From: an uncultured Mycoplasmatales bacterium
GTDB lineage: Bacteria > Bacillota_I > Bacilli_A > Mycoplasmatales > Mycoplasmataceae
DNA length: 64,000 bases
Direction: 5' to 3'
Assembly: GCA_964485375.1 (NCBI GenBank)
Contig: CAZAJD010000001.1
Span: 25,271-89,270 of the forward strand
In this document: positions 26,822 to 36,149 of the stretch, in pieces
Layout: every line of letters begins with the position of its first letter
Position numbering within the stretch: the stretch's first letter is position 1
Program-made: the position numbers and the translations under genes
The notes under the pieces: generated by a model
Seen by the model: only the letters and a program-made list of their open reading frames with translations
Databases searched by the model: none
Told to the model about the DNA's origin: nothing

Positions 26822-27424
26822 TTAGAATTTTTTTGCTATTTTAGCTATTTTAGAATCATACTTATCAATTAATTCTTTTGGCATTAATTTAGCATTTTCT
26901 TTTATTTTTGTACCTGAAATTAAAAAAGGTTTATTTACTTTTGCTCCTGCAAATTTTCAAGTATTTTTTAAGTATTTACCAACATTTCCTCATTTGTATC
27001 ATCCCTCAGGTGCTCCTTGGGTAGTTAAAATTTGTACTTGTAAATTAGTTAATAAACCTATTGCTTCTCCTTTTTTGCTATATTTATATGAAAATGTTTT
27101 GTTAGGTACTAAAATATGATCCATATAATTTTTTGCTAGTGTAGTTACATTAAAATTTGTCATTGGTGTTGAAAATATTAATTTATCTATTTTTTTAAGT
27201 TGATTAATGTAATTATCACTATCTTCTTTATTAAAAAATGTATTCATAACTTTTTTGTTTAATGTTTTATTTGCCATATTTACATTAGTTAGATCTAGGT
27301 ATTGAATTTTATCTTTTGAGTTATATTTTTTATAATGTTTTATAAAGCGATTAGTTAATTCAGTTGAATACGATTTTTCATTATTTATCATAGTTGAATA
27401 AATTACTAATATATTTTTTTGCAT
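26822..27424 (-). CDS. azoR: FMN-dependent NADH-azoreductase (flavodoxin-like fold)
   Basis: Track ORF 26999-27424(-) continues through three TGA (..GAPEGWYKWGNVGKYLKNTWKFAG..) to TAA (complement of 26822-26824), 603 nt in total. The N-terminus ILVIYST...SYS and ..FSTPMTNFNV.. are typical AzoR/AcpD. Confidence 0.8.
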
Positions 27425-27493: not shown

Positions 27494-27535
27494 CTAATCA
27501 TATATGAGTATTTAAATGTACTTTTTAAAAAGTTT

Positions 27536-27672
27536 AAAAAGGAATTAAGTGAAAATCTTAAGCTATCCTAGTAACTGTAATGTGGATGAAAACTTCAATA
27601 ACCATTGAAATGAAAATTTTGAGAAGGGAAGTTAGTAATGTGATACAAGCCAGTAGACTTGCATTTAAATAT
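27536..27672 (+). promoter_or_regulatory. Cobalamin (B12) riboswitch aptamer, AT-rich variant
   Basis: GGAAUUAAGUGAAAAUCUUAAGCUAUCCUAGUAACUGUAA (27541-27580) parallels the conserved core GGGAA-nnnGGUGAAAAUCCnnnGC..CCCGCCACUGUAA, with a perfect UUAAG/CUUAA stem around the GUGAAAAUC loop. GAGAAGGGAAGUUAG (27621-27635) matches the GGGAAG element. AAGCCAGUAGACUUGCA (27647-27663) matches the B12 box rAGYCMGgAgaCCkGCc at 13 of 16 positions by eye. This stretch is locally much more G+C-rich than its surroundings. Confidence 0.7.
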
Positions 27673-27717
27673 ATTTTTTTGTTATTTCTAGGGAAAATAA
27701 TATATTTTTTGTTTTTT
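27667..27717 (+). terminator. Candidate expression-platform hairpin plus T tract downstream of the B12 box
   Basis: aaatatatt (27667-27675) pairs with aatatattt (27699-27707), and t27677-t27680 pair with a27694-a27697. The hairpin is followed by tttgtttttt. The stem is all A-U, so it is weak. Confidence 0.35.
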
Positions 27718-27800
27718 ATATAAACAATAATTTTCGAATTTCCTTTTTTAATAATAATTATATTTATAATGATTATAGTAATTTGGAAAAGGAAAAGAAT

Positions 27801-28244
27801 ATGAAATCATTAATTACTATTTTATTTACATTTATTTTAGGTAGTGGCACTACAAATATTAATTATATACCCAAAAATTTACCAACTAGTTTTTTAACAA
27901 TCGATATATTAAAACATAATTTGGAAATTGAACAAATAGATTATTATAATATTGATTGATCTCAATCTAAAAGACTAGGTAATTTTATATCTAATAATAA
28001 ATGTTCTAATCCAATTTTTGTAGATAAACAACCTTTTGTTTTTCAAACATCTAATCTAGGAAGATTTTTAAATGATATTAAAGATGAAAAAGGGAATAAT
28101 ATAGTTAAAAGTCATAAACAGTATTGAGAAATATTTTACTTAGATCCTTTTACATCAAGATTAACTCCTTCTTTATCAGGTATCGATTCAATTTTAATCG
28201 ATAATAACCATAATTCATTTGCATTTATTTTAGAAAATTTTTAG
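27801..28244 (+). CDS. Hypothetical small exported/signal-anchored protein (first gene behind the B12 riboswitch)
   Basis: ATG 27801 preceded by ggaaaaggaaaag; two in-frame TGA; TAG 28242-28244. The N-terminus MKSLITILFTFILGSGTT is hydrophobic and the rest is hydrophilic. It is absent from the track because TGA splits it. No family recognised. Confidence 0.5.
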
Positions 28245-28248
28245 TATT

Positions 28249-28722
28249 ATGATTGTTAAAAAAATTTTTTTAATCCCATTAACTTTTATTAGTTTTATTT
28301 TATTTTTATTTATACTCCCTTTACTTCAATCTTATTTTTCTAAAGATATATTAACTGCGCCAGAAGAAGTAACTATTCCTATTTGATGAGATAAAAAAAC
28401 TCTTGCTGATAAAGGGGAAGGACCTAATTATGAAAGACATTTTTATAATATTAAAAATGGATATTCTAATTTATTTTCTTTATTAGAAAAAGATAAAAAT
28501 TTTAAAATTAATTATGATAATTTCACACTTTTAAGTATTTTTGCACCTAAACATCCAGGATGTAAACCAGAATGGATAAAATCTAATTCTAATTTAGTTT
28601 GAAAGTGATATAATGCATCAAAACCTACTACTATTATAAGTGGTAATTTAAAAAAAATTCCAATTACACATGGAAGAAATCTTTTTTATTTAGAATTAAA
28701 ATGTAAAAATGGATCAATATAA
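28249..28722 (+). CDS. Hypothetical small signal-anchored protein (second gene of the riboswitch operon)
   Basis: ATG 28249 lies 4 nt after the previous stop; four TGA plus one TGG; TAA 28720-28722. N-terminal TM segment IFLIPLTFISFILFLFILPLL followed by a ~125-aa soluble domain with 2 Cys. No family recognised. Confidence 0.5.
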
Positions 28723-29266
28723 TTCGATTTTTAAATATATTTTTAAAATTACAATTATTTCAATGTTTGTATCACTTTGTATTGTCTTAAGATATATTTT
28801 AATTTTTTTACCTAATGTTGAATTAATTACATTTTTATTAATGATGTCTGTGATAGTTTTCCAATGGAAAACCTCGATTTTAATAATTAATTGCTTCTGT
28901 TTTTCTCAAGTAGTTTTATTTAGTTTTATTGATTTACCATACTTTTATATATTCAATTTATATTGATTAATTACCTTTATTTTCAGAAAAATGATTTTAA
29001 AATTTTGATATATTTTGCCAATATTATTATTTTTTTATGGACTTGCTTTCGGATTACTATATTCATTAGAAATGTGATTATTATATAGTTTGCCATTCGC
29101 TATATCATATTGAATTACTGGTTTAATTTTTGATATAACACATGCAATTTCTAGTATGATCTTTGGATTTCTGTTTTATATTCCTGTTATAAAAACAATG
29201 AAAATGTTATCTATAAATAAAACTTTTTTATTTGATGACTATTTTTTAGATAAATATTCATTTTAA
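28709..29266 (+). CDS. Six-TM membrane protein, ECF S-component-like (candidate corrinoid-specific S component)
   Basis: Track ORF 28709-28966 extends through four TGA to TAA 29264-29266 and overlaps the previous gene by 14 nt. About 185 aa with six hydrophobic segments, the size and topology typical of ECF S components. The functional idea comes from riboswitch context only. Confidence 0.45.
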
Positions 29267-29322
29267 TTGCATTAATTATAAATAGAATCTATAATTAATA
29301 TAAAATAATTGAGGTAATAAGA

Positions 29323-29991
29323 TTGCAGAGCGCTAATGAACAATATATTAACATTAATACTCATCATCATCATAATTCTTATAATCCAAACCAAAAAATA
29401 TTTAAAATAGTTCTAACTGGATTATTTTTGACTTTATCTACTATTTTATCTCTTATTGAAATAAAATTTTATTTACCTTGAGGTGTCGAGATGGACTTAC
29501 GCCTTTTTGATATGGTTTTTTTATTTTTATCTGTTACTGTACTTGGTGTTTATTATGCCTCTATTGCAGGGCTATTACAGCCATGATTTCATCTTGCTGT
29601 TGATGGAGATCATTCTGCAATTTCCATACTTTTTTATAGTATAAGCAATGTTTTGATTATTATAATTTTCTGATTTTTATATTTAAAAGTATTTTCATTT
29701 GCTAAATATTCTAAATTAAAAAATAGTTATAAAAAAGAATTATTATATTTTTTGTTTTTTGTTATTTTTATATTTTTAGCAGCTTCAATAGATTCTTTTT
29801 TTATAATTATCGTTTCTAAAATTACATTAGTTTCTAGTGATAATATTATTAATTTTAGTAAATTTAAGAATCTCTTTATTTTATATTTAATTTTTTTAGG
29901 AATATTTATTGTTAAGTATTTAGTTGCGCTGCTTATTTTTATATCTATTAATAGGAAAAGCACTTTTTTACAAGAACATTATAATAATTAA
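29323..29991 (+). CDS. Polytopic membrane protein, ECF S-component-like, with N-terminal His4 tract
   Basis: GAGGT at 29311-29315, then TTG 29323, in frame with track ORF 29752-29991 via three TGA. The nearby ATG 29336 is out of frame and terminates quickly. The N-terminus ..NINTHHHHNSYNPNQK precedes the first TM segment. Confidence 0.45.
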
Positions 29992-30023
29992 AAAAAATAA
30001 TTCAATTTAGAATTATTTTTTTT
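29992..30023. terminator. Bidirectional terminator between the riboswitch operon (+) and ppa (-)
   Basis: aaaaaataattc (29992-30003) / gaattatttttt (30010-30021), a perfect 12-bp inverted repeat with a 6-nt loop. An A tract lies on one side and a T tract on the other. Confidence 0.55.
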
Positions 30024-30028
30024 AATTA

Positions 30029-30601
30029 TTATATTAATTTTTTATTTTTTCAAATTTTCTTGACTTCTTTAACGCCGCTATTTATTAATATATCTTTATA
30101 TTCATTAAATCTTTCTCGACATTCTTGAATTTCTTTTTTAGCTTGTTTTATATCGCTTCAACCTTTAATTACAACTTTTTTATTTTGAAGAGTTTTATAT
30201 TGTAATAAAAAATTTTCAAATTCATTTTTTATATGAACTGGTACATCATTTAATGTTTGAATATGATTAAAACGTGGATCATTTGAAATCACACCAAATA
30301 TTTTGGTATCAATTTCACCATCATCAATCATGTTTATTGATCCTAATACTTTAGCTTTTACTCTACAACCTGGGAATGTAGGATATGTAGATAATATTAA
30401 AATATCTAAAGGATCGCCATCTCAATCTAATGTATTTGGGATACAACCATATTCTCCAGGATAAAAATTAGCACCATATAATACTCTATCTAGTGCAATA
30501 GAATTATCACGAAAATTTCATTCATATTTGTTACTGCTATACTTAGGTATTTCTACAATAAAGTCAATATTATATTCACTTTCAATTTTATTTTCTTTCA
30601 T
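30029..30601 (-). CDS. ppa: Inorganic pyrophosphatase (family I)
   Basis: Reverse-strand ATG (complement of 30599-30601) to TAA (complement of 30029-30031), 573 nt with five in-frame TGA. Translation ..[56 protein letters not shown].. is the canonical family I PPase core. It is not in the track. Confidence 0.9.
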
Positions 30602-30751
30602 AAATTATCTTTACTTTCTATTTAATATTTCAATTATTTTTATTTATAATATTTAAAAATTATACAATATTTTTTTAAAAAATATTGATTATGATAAAAT
30701 AATATCATAATAAATACTTTATATGTTATAAATAAACTAGATGGTGGTTTT

Positions 30752-35762: not shown

Positions 35763-36149
35763 GAAAAGCAGATTTGCTAATCGCTGACTTATATAGTTAG
35801 AGGAAACTCCATGCTCATACTTTCTGTGATGAAAGTAGTGATTGTGTTAAAGGAAAAAATAACTTTAAACTTGTAAATTAAATTTACAAGATGGCTGAAT
35901 AAATTGACTAAGTATTTATTAAATTAAATATATGTTAATTTTTTCTGTAAAAGTGCCAAAGAGACGAGGCCTTAAAGAAATTTAAGGAAGTGGAACGTGG
36001 TAAACCCCGCAAATGAGAAACCTAAATTTTGGTAAGGGAATTAAAAATTTCGAAATGAAGAAATTTTTGAATTATAGTTATACTATGATAGATAAATGGT
36101 TAGCATCTTGAAATATAGATACAAAACATGGGTTATAAATCTGCTTTTT
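35763..36149 (+). ncRNA. rnpB: RNase P RNA (bacterial type B)
   Basis: The P4 5' strand AGAGGAAACUCCAUGCUC (consensus GAGGAAAGUCCAUGCUC) is at ~35800-35817, and the 3' strand ACAAAACAUGGGUUA is at ~36121-36135. The terminal P1 pairing is gaaaagcagattt (35763-35775) with aaatctgcttttt (36137-36149). The region is non-coding, and locally G+C-richer blocks sit around the AGUGCCAAAGAGACGAGGCC and GUGGAACGUGGUAAACCCCGCAAAUGAG stretches. Confidence 0.85.

What the first reader, a model, noticed from the sequence alone, without database searches (positions are those of the whole stretch)
27801..29991. Uncharacterised four-gene operon under B12-riboswitch control: candidate novel corrinoid acquisition system
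Four tightly packed or overlapping genes follow the riboswitch, with a 4-nt gap, a 14-nt overlap and a 56-nt gap between them. They are bounded by a terminator at 29992. Two encode small proteins (147 and 157 aa), each with a single N-terminal hydrophobic anchor or signal and a soluble domain I cannot assign to any family. The other two encode ~185- and ~222-aa proteins with about six TM segments, the size and topology of ECF-transporter S components. The last protein starts at TTG and carries a His4 tract just before TM1, which could act as a metal or corrin ligand. In other Bacillota, B12 riboswitches sit upstream of the S component CbrT or of btuFCD. A pair of S-component-like proteins plus two small surface-exposed proteins is not an arrangement I recognise. 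The small proteins could be cell-surface corrinoid capture factors for a wall-less cell. None of the four genes is represented properly in the supplied ORF track because of in-frame TGA.
Basis: inference. Interest (0 to 1): 0.85.

Follow-up and report, generated by a model that had tools for sequence, protein, structure and literature searches.

The report
B12-riboswitch cbrT operon in a Mollicute
A vitamin-B12-sensing RNA switch in a tiny wall-less bacterium controls a recognisable relative of the known B12 importer subunit CbrT, so the core is a known system; the two small proteins and a second transporter subunit beside it remain uncharacterised.

Summary
Under genetic code 4, four ORFs (147, 157, 185 and 222 aa) follow a strong cobalamin riboswitch (86.8 bits) and end at a 23-bp hairpin.

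The claim of novelty is only partly right.
- **Gene 3** is a specific homolog of CbrT, the solved vitamin-B12 S component of the Lactobacillus delbrueckii ECF transporter (PDB 6FNP; E 1e-14, 2.6e-18 with a profile; the only PDB hit).
- **Known layout:** riboswitch, then a small anchored protein (CbrS, DUF4430, transcobalamin-like), then an overlapping cbrT already exists in Firmicutes.
- **Genes 1 and 2** occupy the CbrS position with the same architecture. Their homology to DUF4430 is only suggestive (shuffle p about 0.004–0.016; the AF2 model failed).
- **Gene 4** is a second S component by fold (pLDDT 88.8; the top 13 Foldseek hits are all S components). It belongs to the uncharacterised MPN160 family. 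Relatives sit at the same backbone slot without riboswitch or cbrT, and one sits in an EcfA-EcfA'-CbiQ-MPN160-Hrl cluster, pointing to a metal substrate. It is therefore probably a resident neighbour.

Verdict: new member of a known kind, with unresolved accessories.

The parts
27499..27680 (+). Cobalamin (B12) riboswitch aptamer
   Evidence: RF00174, 86.8 bits against a gathering score of 31.5, E 4.9e-20, model positions 1-189. Orthologous aptamers precede the cbrT-like genes in L011 (72.2 bits) and L013 (72.7 bits).
27667..27799 (+). Expression platform. An A/U hairpin (27667-27707) is followed by a U-rich run. A second hairpin pairs UUUCCUUUUUU (about 27739-27751) with the gene 1 ribosome-binding site GGAAAAGGAAAAG (about 27783-27797).
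   Evidence: MFE fold. The z-score is only -1.4 to -1.6, so the structures are plausible but not statistically distinctive. Hairpins followed by U-runs also follow the aptamers in L011 and L013 (z -3.6). The OFF-switch logic is inferred from general knowledge of B12 riboswitches.
27801..28244 (+). Gene 1: 147-aa protein with an N-terminal hydrophobic anchor or signal and a soluble domain. Candidate divergent CbrS-like (DUF4430-like) accessory protein.
   Evidence: Table-4 ORF with 2 in-frame TGA. Its only relative among 5.8 billion proteins is P0039, the single small protein that overlaps the cbrT-like gene in syntenic L011 (34% identity in the pairwise alignment, 33% in the three-way one). 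No Pfam or NCBIfam hit. It carries the DUF4430 hallmark 'SNLGRFLNDI...KQYWEI'. Against a 4-sequence DUF4430 HMM, 12 of 3000 shuffles score as well. hhalign is not significant. The AF2 model failed (pLDDT 36).
28249..28722 (+). Gene 2: 157-aa protein with an N-terminal transmembrane anchor and a soluble domain. It overlaps the start of cbrT by 14 nt, which is the CbrS position. Possibly a second, more divergent CbrS-like protein.
   Evidence: Table-4 ORF with 4 in-frame TGA. Strong N-terminal hydrophobic segment at residues 8-26. A singleton in the databases. No family or PDB hit. Weak similarity to CbrS: 4 of 1000 and 49 of 3000 shuffles score as well, and hhalign gives a 62-column alignment but E 0.13.
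28709..29266 (+). Gene 3: cbrT, the vitamin-B12-specific S component of an ECF-type ABC importer.
   Evidence: phmmer against the PDB returns a single hit, 6FNP chain A (the 182-aa chain unique to the ECF-CbrT entry), at E 1.1e-14, residues 12-162 against 10-167, 30% identity. A profile of three Mollicute orthologs gives 2.6e-18, still the only PDB hit. Orthologs follow B12 riboswitches in L011 and L013. CbrT function is established in PMC5997447.
29271..29299 (.). Gene 3-gene 4 spacer element: a perfect 10-bp inverted repeat ATTAATTATA-N9-TATAATTAAT whose 3' arm contains TATAAT (29290-29295), 28 nt before the TTG start. Possible weak hairpin, operator or internal promoter.
   Evidence: Read directly from the sequence. 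The fold is only about -7 kcal/mol with no U-tract, so it is not a convincing terminator. Promoter-like matches in the region are at chance level (29 found, 30.9 expected). It does not match the M. genitalium Fur box.
29323..29991 (+). Gene 4: 222-aa short-form MPN160-family protein with the ECF S-component fold, an N-terminal HHHH tract and conserved R60, D63, P87, H90 and H97. Substrate unknown, with a transition metal favoured.
   Evidence: NCBIfam MPN160 at 1.2e-24, covering only profile positions 160-384 of 386 and far below the curated cut-off. Only 34 family representatives among 1.84 billion proteins. Conserved residues from alignment A2. AF2 model pLDDT 88.8, pTM 0.85. Foldseek top 13 hits are all S components: RibU, BioY, ThiT, PanT, FolT. 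8 of 31 members hit PF12822. The long-form member in L016 lies between EcfA-EcfA'-CbiQ and an MPN162/Hrl-like lipoprotein.
29981..30032 (.). Bidirectional A/T-only terminator hairpin (23 bp, 6-nt loop) between the convergent gene 4 and ppa.
   Evidence: RNA fold of -20.2 and -20.3 kcal/mol on the two strands.

Best explanation
This is a Mollicute version of the known B12-riboswitch-controlled cbrS-cbrT uptake module. It sits immediately upstream of a resident, unrelated S-component gene.

Proposed mechanism:
1. When intracellular adenosylcobalamin is low, the riboswitch (27499-27680) lets the leader be read. When B12 is bound, a terminator-like hairpin and/or a hairpin sequestering the ribosome-binding site shuts the unit off. 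This step is inferred.
2. Gene 3 encodes CbrT, the membrane-embedded substrate-binding S component. It captures cobalamin or cobinamide at the outer face and topples in complex with a shared EcfA-EcfA'-EcfT module encoded elsewhere in the genome. The homology is shown. The transport and the presence of the module are inferred.
3. Genes 1 and 2 are translationally coupled to cbrT. They are small membrane-anchored extracellular proteins in the place of CbrS, and they most likely pre-concentrate or hand over corrinoid at the wall-less cell surface. This is inferred. Homology to the DUF4430/transcobalamin beta-domain is suggestive only.
4. Gene 4 is a second S component, of the MPN160 family. It occupied this chromosomal slot before the B12 module arrived. 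It most likely imports a transition metal (Ni/Co/Zn type) through an ECF module. It may be read through from the riboswitch-controlled promoter as well as from a promoter of its own.
For: Riboswitch:
- RF00174 at 86.8 bits.

Gene 3 = CbrT:
- It is the only PDB sequence hit, at E 1.1e-14 over almost the full length, rising to 2.6e-18 with an ortholog profile.
- 6FNP is ECF-CbrT, shown experimentally to import cobalamin and cobinamide (PMC5997447).

The arrangement is already known:
- L. delbrueckii has nrdJ-cbrS-cbrT-pduO, with CbrS a 159-aa anchored DUF4430 protein (7.5e-20).
- An Acutalibacteraceae MAG has riboswitch, then a 147-aa anchored DUF4430 protein (3e-16), then an overlapping cbrT.
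- The CbrS profile hits transcobalamin-1 and intrinsic factor C-terminal domains and the DUF4430 structure 3U7Z.

Covariation in relatives:
- Riboswitch and a cbrT-like gene occur together in the window, L011 and L013.
- Neither occurs in L012, L015, L016, L018 or L019, although all of these carry a gene 4-like gene.

Small proteins:
- Same size, N-terminal anchor and position as CbrS, overlapping cbrT.
- Gene 1 has an ortholog in that exact position in L011.
- Weak but repeated similarity to DUF4430, centred on its hallmark motif.

Gene 4:
- S-component fold.
- 30 of 31 relatives match NCBIfam MPN160, and a few match Mollicute S-component models.
- 8 of 31 reach PF12822.
- A family member sits in an EcfA-EcfA'-CbiQ-MPN160-Hrl cluster.
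- His-rich N-termini and loops and invariant His residues occur across the family.
- There is no strong terminator between genes 3 and 4.
Against: - No EcfA/EcfA'/EcfT genes lie in the 64-kb window, and the rest of the genome could not be read. The energising module is assumed from general knowledge that Mollicutes carry one (PMC8566771).
- No B12-dependent enzyme or adenosyltransferase is in the window, so the need for B12 is inferred only from the riboswitch and cbrT.
- Genes 1 and 2 fail every standard test for DUF4430: Pfam gives nothing at E up to 10, hhalign probability is below 1%, there is no PDB hit and the AF2 model is unusable.
- L013 has no small protein at all.
- The metal assignment for gene 4 rests on His-rich features and on one gene cluster in a distant relative.
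- In all four cbrT-bearing loci the gene 4-like gene lies directly downstream on the same strand. A functional link cannot be excluded.
Confidence: 0.65

Rival explanations
1. One reading: all four proteins form one new, integrated corrinoid acquisition system. Gene 4 would be a second corrinoid-type S component, for example for cobinamide or another corrinoid form, using H90/H97 or the His4 tract as a cobalt ligand. Genes 1 and 2 would be new-fold capture factors.
For: - Gene 4-like genes lie directly downstream of cbrT on the same strand in all four cbrT-bearing loci: the window, L011, L013 and L009.
- There is no convincing terminator in the spacer.
- The conserved His, Asp and Arg residues lie at the predicted outer-face ends of helices 2 and 3 and in loop 3.
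- From background knowledge rather than a test here, BtuM shows that a His can ligate the corrin cobalt.
- Genes 1 and 2 have no detectable family.
Against: - Gene 4-like genes with the same conserved residues sit at the same backbone slot, or elsewhere, with no riboswitch and no cbrT in L012, L015, L018 and L019.
- The family includes M. pneumoniae MPN160. From my own knowledge that organism is not known to use B12.
- A member clusters with CbiQ-type ECF genes and an Hrl-like lipoprotein that the literature ties to Ni/Co (PMC6968530).
- The spacing differs: 48-99 nt gaps before the gene 4-like genes, against overlaps between the small protein and cbrT.
- The adjacency is explained by a single insertion of the B12 module into an ancestral slot.
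Confidence: 0.15
2. Genes 1 and 2 are not CbrS/DUF4430 relatives. They would be lineage-specific surface proteins of a different fold, either a convergent B12-handling accessory or hitch-hikers unrelated to B12.
For: - No significant sequence match to DUF4430 by Pfam, hhalign or PDB search.
- The structure prediction was uninformative.
- Copy number varies from 0 to 2 among close relatives.
- Genes 1 and 2 are not detectably similar to each other.
Against: - They lie between the riboswitch and cbrT with a 4-nt gap and a 14-nt overlap, exactly where CbrS sits in Firmicutes.
- They have the same size and N-terminal anchor.
- Gene 1 and P0039 carry the two-part DUF4430 hallmark (GxF[IL]xxI ... 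YW) in the right order and spacing.
- All three proteins beat 98.4-99.6% of their own shuffles against a DUF4430 profile.
Confidence: 0.3
3. Gene 3 is an S component for some other substrate, and the riboswitch linkage reflects regulation of a B12-independent function.
For: - Identity to CbrT is only 30%.
- Gene 3 itself reaches no Pfam or NCBIfam model.
- No B12-dependent enzyme is visible in the window.
Against: - CbrT is the only solved protein hit, and the hit strengthens with a profile, while no other solved S component appears.
- The match spans almost the whole protein, including the PNV(E/Q)xxT and YW(I/V)(T/S)GL(I/T)FD motifs.
- The same riboswitch-cbrT linkage is seen in a Firmicute and in two other Mollicute loci.
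Confidence: 0.07

Closest known systems
ECF-CbrT vitamin B12 importer of Lactobacillus delbrueckii (PDB 6FNP; Santos et al. 2018, PMC5997447) with its neighbouring gene cbrS
   Same: - Gene 3 aligns with CbrT over about 150 residues at 30% identity and is its only PDB match.
- A small N-terminally anchored protein gene lies immediately upstream and overlaps or abuts cbrT.
- The system is expected to depend on a shared EcfAA'T module (group II).
   Different: - In L. delbrueckii the cluster is nrdJ-cbrS-cbrT-pduO, and no riboswitch was detected within the 12-kb locus. Here a riboswitch leads the unit and no nrdJ or pduO is nearby.
- There are two small proteins instead of one, and neither is recognisable as DUF4430 by standard tools.
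- A second S-component gene follows cbrT.
- The genetic code is 4 and the GC content is 21%.
Riboswitch-cbrS-cbrT unit of Clostridia (Acutalibacteraceae MAG, locus L008)
   Same: The order and spacing match: RF00174, then a 147-aa anchored small protein, then an overlapping cbrT.
   Different: The small protein there is a clear DUF4430 (3e-16). There is a single copy, and no MPN160-family gene lies downstream.
DUF4430 (PF14478), the transcobalamin / intrinsic factor C-terminal domain (PDB 4KKI, 2PMV, 3U7Z)
   Same: CbrS belongs to it. Gene 1 and its ortholog share the GxF(I/L)xxI ... YW hallmark, and gene 2 aligns across the domain.
   Different: No statistically significant match for gene 1 or gene 2. 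The fold is unverified.
MPN160 family (NCBIfam NF045740) and the Fur-regulated CbiO-CbiO-CbiQ / Hrl metal system of M. genitalium and M. pneumoniae (PMC6968530, PMC8566771)
   Same: - Gene 4 is homologous to the C-terminal six-helix part of MPN160 proteins.
- A long-form member lies between EcfA-EcfA'-CbiQ and an MPN162/Hrl-like lipoprotein.
- His-rich segments occur across the family.
   Different: - Gene 4 lacks the roughly 160-aa N-terminal extension and scores far below the curated cut-off (87 against 550 bits).
- It sits after cbrT rather than after an ECF module.
- No function has been shown for any member.
Other B12 uptake systems: BtuFCD and BtuM
   Same: They have the same physiological role and are often controlled by a B12 riboswitch (background knowledge).
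   Different: None of the four proteins gave any sequence hit to a PDB entry other than CbrT (gene 3) or to a Btu-type NCBIfam or Pfam model. The 50 listed Foldseek hits of the gene 4 model contain none described as BtuM or BtuC.

Membership tests
Cobalamin riboswitch (Rfam RF00174) | Covariance-model score at or above the curated gathering threshold over the full aptamer | tested here: met
   86.8 bits against 31.5, model positions 1-189 of 189, E 4.9e-20. Orthologous hits in L011 and L013.
Cobalamin riboswitch (Rfam RF00174) | Ligand-dependent control of the downstream genes | not testable with these tools
   Only predicted terminator-like and RBS-sequestering hairpins are available. In-line probing or a reporter assay is needed.
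CbrT (B12-specific ECF S component) | Significant, near full-length sequence similarity to the experimentally characterised CbrT, better than to any other S component | tested here: met
   6FNP chain A is the only PDB hit: E 1.1e-14 for the single sequence and 2.6e-18 for the ortholog profile, residues 12-162 against 10-167.
CbrT (B12-specific ECF S component) | Small polytopic membrane protein of about 180-190 aa with about six helices | tested here: met
   185 aa, with hydrophobic segments throughout. It is collinear with the six-helix CbrT chain.
CbrT (B12-specific ECF S component) | B12-related genomic or regulatory context | tested here: met
   Directly downstream of RF00174 in the window, L011 and L013. 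The same linkage is seen in Firmicute L008.
CbrT (B12-specific ECF S component) | Small-xxx-small (AxxxA-type) motif in helix 1 for docking on EcfT | tested here: inconclusive
   In alignment A1, CbrT's 'ALLTA' aligns with gene 3's 'SMFVS' (an SxxxS variant). PMC8566771 describes AxxxA and its variants for group II S components. No functional test was possible.
CbrT (B12-specific ECF S component) | An EcfA-EcfA'-EcfT energising module in the same genome | not testable with these tools
   None lies in the 64-kb window; the only Walker-A proteins are Ffh and an ABC exporter.
CbrT (B12-specific ECF S component) | Binds and transports cobalamin or cobinamide | not testable with these tools
   Requires an experiment, such as the assays of PMC5997447.
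CbrS / DUF4430 (PF14478) | Match to the Pfam DUF4430 model | tested here: not met
   No hit for gene 1, gene 2 or P0039 at E up to 10. The positive controls CbrS (L. delbrueckii) and CbrS (L008) score 7.5e-20 and 3e-16.
CbrS / DUF4430 (PF14478) | Remote similarity to the domain, including the GxF(I/V)xxI ... YW hallmark | tested here: inconclusive
   Shuffle tests: gene 1, 12 of 3000; P0039, 42 of 3000; gene 2, 49 of 3000. hhalign aligns the hallmark, but with probability below 1%.
CbrS / DUF4430 (PF14478) | DUF4430 fold as in 3U7Z or the transcobalamin C-terminal domain | tested here: inconclusive
   The AF2 model of gene 1 with its one ortholog has pLDDT 36.3 and pTM 0.30, which is unusable.
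CbrS / DUF4430 (PF14478) | About 150-aa protein with an N-terminal anchor, encoded immediately upstream of and coupled to cbrT | tested here: met
   Gene 2 overlaps cbrT by 14 nt, and gene 1 is 4 nt upstream of gene 2. P0039 overlaps the cbrT-like gene in L011. Compare L004 and L008.
MPN160 family (NCBIfam NF045740, equivalog) | Full-length match above the curated cut-off (550 bits, 386-position profile) | tested here: not met
   87.3 bits, covering only profile positions 160-384. Gene 4 is a short form that lacks the N-terminal extension seen in P0016 and P0029.
MPN160 family (NCBIfam NF045740, equivalog) | Homology to the C-terminal membrane domain, with the conserved R, D, PWxH and DGxH positions | tested here: met
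   E 1.2e-24. 30 of 31 relatives hit the model. Conserved columns are listed in A2.
ECF transporter S component (Pfam PF12822 / structural class) | Sequence match to PF12822 | tested here: not met
   Neither gene 4 nor gene 3 hits it. However, 8 of 31 gene 4 relatives do (best 5.4e-10), and L. delbrueckii CbrT does (8.1e-14).
ECF transporter S component (Pfam PF12822 / structural class) | Six-helix S-component fold | tested here: met
   Gene 4 model pLDDT 88.8. Foldseek top 13 hits are RibU, BioY, ThiT, PanT, FolT and other ECF S chains, with target TM-scores 0.51-0.72 and probability 0.82-1.00. The E-values are modest, 6.5e-3 at best.
ECF transporter S component (Pfam PF12822 / structural class) | Genomic association with EcfA/EcfA'/EcfT in at least some genomes | tested here: met
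   The long-form relative P0016 lies directly after ABC_tran-ABC_tran-CbiQ in L016 and L017.
CbiM/NikM metal S components | Extra N-terminal helix and a conserved Met-His N-terminus that inserts into the metal site | tested here: not met
   Gene 4 starts MQSANEQ..., has six helices in the model, and has no conserved N-terminal MH motif across the family. The features are as described in PMC8566771.

The most novel reading that the evidence does not exclude
The MPN160-family protein (gene 4) could be functionally tied to the B12 module rather than a bystander. It might be a His-lined S component that imports a corrinoid form or cobalt under B12-riboswitch control. Genes 1 and 2 might be a previously unrecognised class of membrane-anchored B12-capture proteins in wall-less bacteria. 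That would give the first function for the MPN160 family and a two-S-component B12 acquisition system. A weaker variant that also remains open is that the MPN160 family is the long-sought EcfS of the Fur-regulated CbiO-CbiO-CbiQ/Hrl metal transporter of mycoplasmas.
Probability: 0.2. Interest if true: 0.7.

Novelty: new member of a known kind. Interest (0 to 1): 0.42.

Why it matters
- B12 riboswitches are generally lost from host-dependent, genome-reduced bacteria (PMC4779614). A retained riboswitch-cbrT unit therefore marks a Mollicute lineage that still depends on host- or microbiota-derived cobalamin.
- It extends the experimentally characterised ECF-CbrT system to code-4 organisms, where standard annotation breaks every gene at TGA.
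- The useful leads are at the edges:
  - extremely diverged CbrS-like proteins, which test how far the transcobalamin-type B12-binding domain can drift;
  - the MPN160 family, shown here to have the S-component fold and to sit in one genome between an ECF module and an Hrl-like lipoprotein. That makes it a testable candidate for the missing substrate-binding subunit of the mycoplasma Fur-regulated metal transporter.

Tried and rejected
**Searches that led nowhere**
1. Word-indexed homology searches for gene 4, gene 3 and the small proteins returned only the proteins themselves plus P0039.
2. The genome-collection scan with the gene 3 + CbrT alignment found only L. delbrueckii-type loci and one Clostridia MAG, not the source genome. 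The likely reason is that the W in the 'YW' pattern is encoded by TGA here.
3. The metagenome scan with the Mollicute CbrT-like alignment found nothing.
4. The source assembly accession and the rest of its 95-kb contig could not be retrieved, because the look-ups returned only the Logan contigs.
5. Rodionov et al. 2009, which named cbrS and cbrT, is not in the held library.

**Tests that gave a negative or unusable result**
6. No paralogy between genes 1 and 2 or between genes 3 and 4.
7. The gene 4 family profile does not match the PDB by sequence, and hhalign against the CbrT-like profile gives 9% probability, so there is no detectable sequence relationship between the two S components.
8. 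An internal promoter before gene 4 cannot be called: consensus matches are at chance level. My hand-read TTGCAT-N17-TATAAT fails the scan's -35 criterion.
9. The spacer palindrome does not match the M. genitalium Fur-box consensus, and no such site lies before gene 4.
10. AF2 on gene 1 with its single ortholog gave pLDDT 36, so no fold search was run on it.

**Alternatives considered and set aside**
11. BtuM, BtuFCD and CbiM/NikM assignments were considered and not supported (see the membership tests).

Full report
**1. Observation**

The window is about 21% GC throughout. Long ORFs appear only when TGA is read as Trp, so this is a code-4 Mollicute-type genome.

Rfam finds a full-length cobalamin riboswitch aptamer at 27499-27680 (+) with 86.8 bits against a gathering score of 31.5.

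Downstream, with table 4, lie four same-strand ORFs:

| Gene | Coordinates | Length | Start |
|---|---|---|---|
| 1 | 27801-28244 | 147 aa | ATG |
| 2 | 28249-28722 | 157 aa | ATG |
| 3 | 28709-29266 | 185 aa | ATG |
| 4 | 29323-29991 | 222 aa | TTG, after GAGG |

- The spacing is a 4-nt gap, a 14-nt overlap and a 56-nt gap.
- The genes carry 2, 4, 4 and 3 in-frame TGA codons.
- A perfect 23-bp A/T hairpin (29981-30032, -20 kcal/mol) separates gene 4 from the convergent pyrophosphatase gene.
- The proteins are called identically in an NCBI assembly and in two Logan read sets.

**2. Gene 3 is CbrT**

Pfam and NCBIfam give nothing for gene 3. A phmmer search of all PDB sequences returns exactly one hit: chain A of 6FNP, at E 1.1e-14, covering residues 12-162 of gene 3 against 10-167 of the 182-aa chain.

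[quoted passage not shown] The 182-aa chain occurs only in that entry, and it is identical to the aligned part of the cbrT ORF that I recovered from L. delbrueckii genomes.

Identity is 30%, with shared PNV(E/Q)xxT and YW(I/V)(T/S)GL(I/T)FDxxHA motifs. A profile of gene 3 and two Mollicute orthologs raises the hit to 2.6e-18. It remains the only PDB match, although many other S components are in the PDB. Gene 3 is therefore specifically CbrT-like.

**3. The arrangement is already known in Firmicutes**

The genome scan returned the L. delbrueckii locus. It reads nrdJ, then a 159-aa ORF, then cbrT, then pduO, which is the 'nrdJ-cbrS-cbrT-pduO' cluster named in PMC5997447.

- CbrS has an N-terminal hydrophobic anchor, a Lys/Thr-rich linker and a Pfam DUF4430 domain (7.5e-20).
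- Its profile matches the C-terminal domains of human transcobalamin-1 (1.8e-4) and intrinsic factor (2.5e-4), and the bacterial DUF4430 structure 3U7Z. This fits the description of DUF4430 as the C-terminal domain of TCN-type B12 binders (PMC4350170).
- In an Acutalibacteraceae MAG (L008), an RF00174 riboswitch (71.1 bits) is followed by a 147-aa anchored DUF4430 protein (3e-16) and an overlapping cbrT.

So riboswitch, then a small anchored B12-binder-like protein, then cbrT is a pre-existing kind of system.

**4. Genes 1 and 2**

Both are near-orphans. The only relative among 5.8 billion proteins is P0039. P0039 is the single small protein that overlaps the cbrT-like gene in the syntenic locus L011, and it aligns end to end with gene 1 (34% identity pairwise, 33% in the three-way alignment).

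| Test | Result |
|---|---|
| Pfam, NCBIfam | no assignment |
| PDB sequence search | no assignment |
| hhalign vs CbrS | probability below 1%, though the alignments fall on the DUF4430 hallmark (LGRFLNDI/YGVFITKI and YWEI/YWTY); for gene 2, a 62-column span of the domain |
| 4-sequence DUF4430 HMM (CbrS ×2, transcobalamin-1, intrinsic factor), anchors removed | shuffles scoring as well: gene 1, 12 of 3000; P0039, 42 of 3000; gene 2, 49 of 3000 |
| AF2 on gene 1 + P0039 | failed (pLDDT 36) |

I conclude that genes 1 and 2 are positional and architectural equivalents of CbrS. Homology to DUF4430 is plausible but unproven.

They are accessory. The three syntenic relatives carry 2 (window), 1 (L011) and 0 (L013) such genes.

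**5. Gene 4**

Gene 4 matches the C-terminal two-thirds of NCBIfam 'MPN160 family protein' (1.2e-24, far below the curated cut-off) and weakly matches a Mollicute putative S-component model.

The exhaustive HMMER search found only 34 representatives among 1.84 billion proteins. Thirty of 31 aligned members match MPN160, and 8 of 31 reach Pfam ECF_trnsprt (best 5.4e-10).

The alignment shows:
- an invariant His (H90, in PW[LI]H);
- nearly invariant G54, R60, D63, G75, P87 and H97;
- in many members, His-rich N-termini (DHYHxxHHF) and His-rich loops between the last two helices.

AF2 with this alignment gives a confident model (pLDDT 88.8, pTM 0.85). Its top 13 Foldseek hits in the PDB are all ECF S components (RibU, BioY, ThiT, PanT, FolT; target TM-scores 0.51-0.72), with noise below them. 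Gene 4 is therefore a second S component, unrelated in sequence to CbrT (hhalign 9%).

**6. Comparative context separates gene 4 from the B12 module**

The backbone thyA-folA-plsC-scpA-scpB-(rluB)-...-ppa-cmk-der-gpsA is conserved.

| Locus | Riboswitch | Small anchored proteins | cbrT-like | Gene 4-like |
|---|---|---|---|---|
| Window | yes | 2 | yes | yes |
| L011 | yes | 1 | yes | yes |
| L013 | yes | 0 | yes | yes |
| L009 (1.5-kb fragment) | upstream not covered | upstream not covered | yes | yes |
| L015 | no | 0 | no | yes, alone beside ppa |
| L019 | no | 0 | no | yes, directly after rluB |
| L018 | no | 0 | no | yes, after a different S component (MMSYN1_0877 family, 4.9e-78), between ppa and cmk |
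| L012 | no | 0 | no | yes, after enolase |

The riboswitch and cbrT therefore covary with each other, not with the gene 4-like gene. The gene 4-like gene is the older resident of the slot.

Spacers before gene 4-like genes are 48-99 nt, in contrast to the overlaps between the small protein and cbrT. In the window the spacer has only a weak A/T hairpin (about -7 kcal/mol, no U-tract) and a TATAAT box inside a perfect 10-bp inverted repeat (29271-29299). Promoter-like matches in this AT-rich region are at chance level. Read-through from the riboswitch-controlled promoter is plausible, and an additional internal promoter cannot be shown or excluded.

**7. What gene 4 may carry**

In L016 and L017 the long MPN160 form lies in a tight cluster: EcfA-EcfA'-CbiQ(EcfT; TIGR02454 6e-22)-MPN160-lipoprotein. 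The lipoprotein matches the MPN162 family (1.2e-10).

MPN162/MG_149 is Hrl, the histidine-rich lipoprotein. Together with the CbiO-CbiO-CbiQ operon MG_302-304 it forms the Fur regulon of M. genitalium and is linked to Ni/Co accumulation. The authors state that no ecfS had been identified for that transporter (PMC6968530; PMC8566771).

The S fold, the His-rich outer loops, the conserved His/Asp positions at the predicted outer ends of helices 2 and 3, and this cluster together favour a transition-metal substrate for the family. This is an inference. No member has been characterised, and a corrinoid or other metal-containing cofactor is not excluded.

**8. Mechanism and regulation**

After the aptamer, the leader can form an A/U hairpin followed by U-runs (27667-27717). 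It can also form a hairpin that pairs UUUCCUUUUUU with the gene 1 ribosome-binding site. The aptamer is clearly orthologous in L011 and L013, and each is followed by hairpins with U-tracts. The folding z-scores for the window are unremarkable (-1.4 to -1.6), so the OFF-switch mechanism is inferred from how B12 riboswitches generally work.

No EcfA-like ATPase or EcfT gene lies in the window. The energising module is assumed to be elsewhere, as in group II ECF systems and in other Mollicutes (PMC8566771).

**9. Verdict**

- The core of the finding is a Mollicute member of the known riboswitch-cbrS-cbrT B12 uptake system, not a new kind of system.
- Three things are new or unresolved: two extremely diverged small accessory proteins, the tandem MPN160-family S component and whether it is co-regulated, and the occurrence of a B12 regulon in such a reduced genome.
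- Interest is moderate (0.42).
- About 20% probability remains that gene 4 and/or genes 1 and 2 have a truly new B12-related role.

Noticed in passing
L016 1984-6892 (also L017): A tight cluster: EcfA-EcfA'-CbiQ/EcfT, then a long-form MPN160 protein (S-component family), then an MPN162/Hrl-family lipoprotein. The literature says no EcfS is known for the Fur-regulated MG_302-304 metal ECF transporter and speculates that Hrl is the binder. The MPN160 family is a candidate for that missing S component.
   Followed up: partly
window 26822-27424 (-); L011 3790-4383 (-); L013 4442-5044 (-): A flavodoxin-like/FMN-reductase gene (Pfam Flavodoxin_2, 1.5e-28) lies divergently just upstream of the riboswitch in all three riboswitch-bearing loci. 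It is absent from the equivalent position in L019, L015, L018 and L012. It may have arrived with the B12 module, for example as a cobalamin reductase, but this was not tested.
   Followed up: partly
L018 4225-5813 (CP027019.1): An MMSYN1_0877-family ECF S-component gene (4.9e-78) lies directly upstream of the MPN160-like gene, between ppa and cmk. Tandem S-component genes at this backbone slot are therefore a general Mollicute feature, with cbrT filling the upstream place in the window's lineage.
   Followed up: partly
window 29271-29299: A perfect 10-bp inverted repeat, ATTAATTATA-N9-TATAATTAAT, in the gene 3-gene 4 spacer. Its 3' arm contains a TATAAT box 28 nt before the gene 4 start. It could be an operator or promoter element or a chance A/T palindrome. 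It does not match the M. genitalium Fur box.
   Followed up: partly
window 30640-30662: A one-mismatch match to the M. genitalium Fur-box pattern (TTATTTNNAA-N3-TTNNAAATAA) in the intergenic region upstream of ppa. The pattern is about two-fold over-represented in the window (15 matches against 7.1 expected; 1 of 100 shuffles reaches 15).
   Followed up: no
window 27801-28722 vs L011 4773-5312 vs L013 5280-5380: The number of small anchored proteins between riboswitch and cbrT is 2, 1 and 0 in three syntenic relatives. The accessory genes are gained or lost quickly.
   Followed up: yes
window 35769-36140 (+): Bacterial RNase P RNA class B (217.9 bits), consistent with a Bacillota/Mollicutes origin. 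L013 carries the same gene at the equivalent syntenic position.
   Followed up: no
L004 3175-5395: In this L. delbrueckii strain the nrdJ reading frame upstream of cbrS appears split into two overlapping ORFs (189 aa and 573 aa). This suggests a frameshift or a sequencing error.
   Followed up: no
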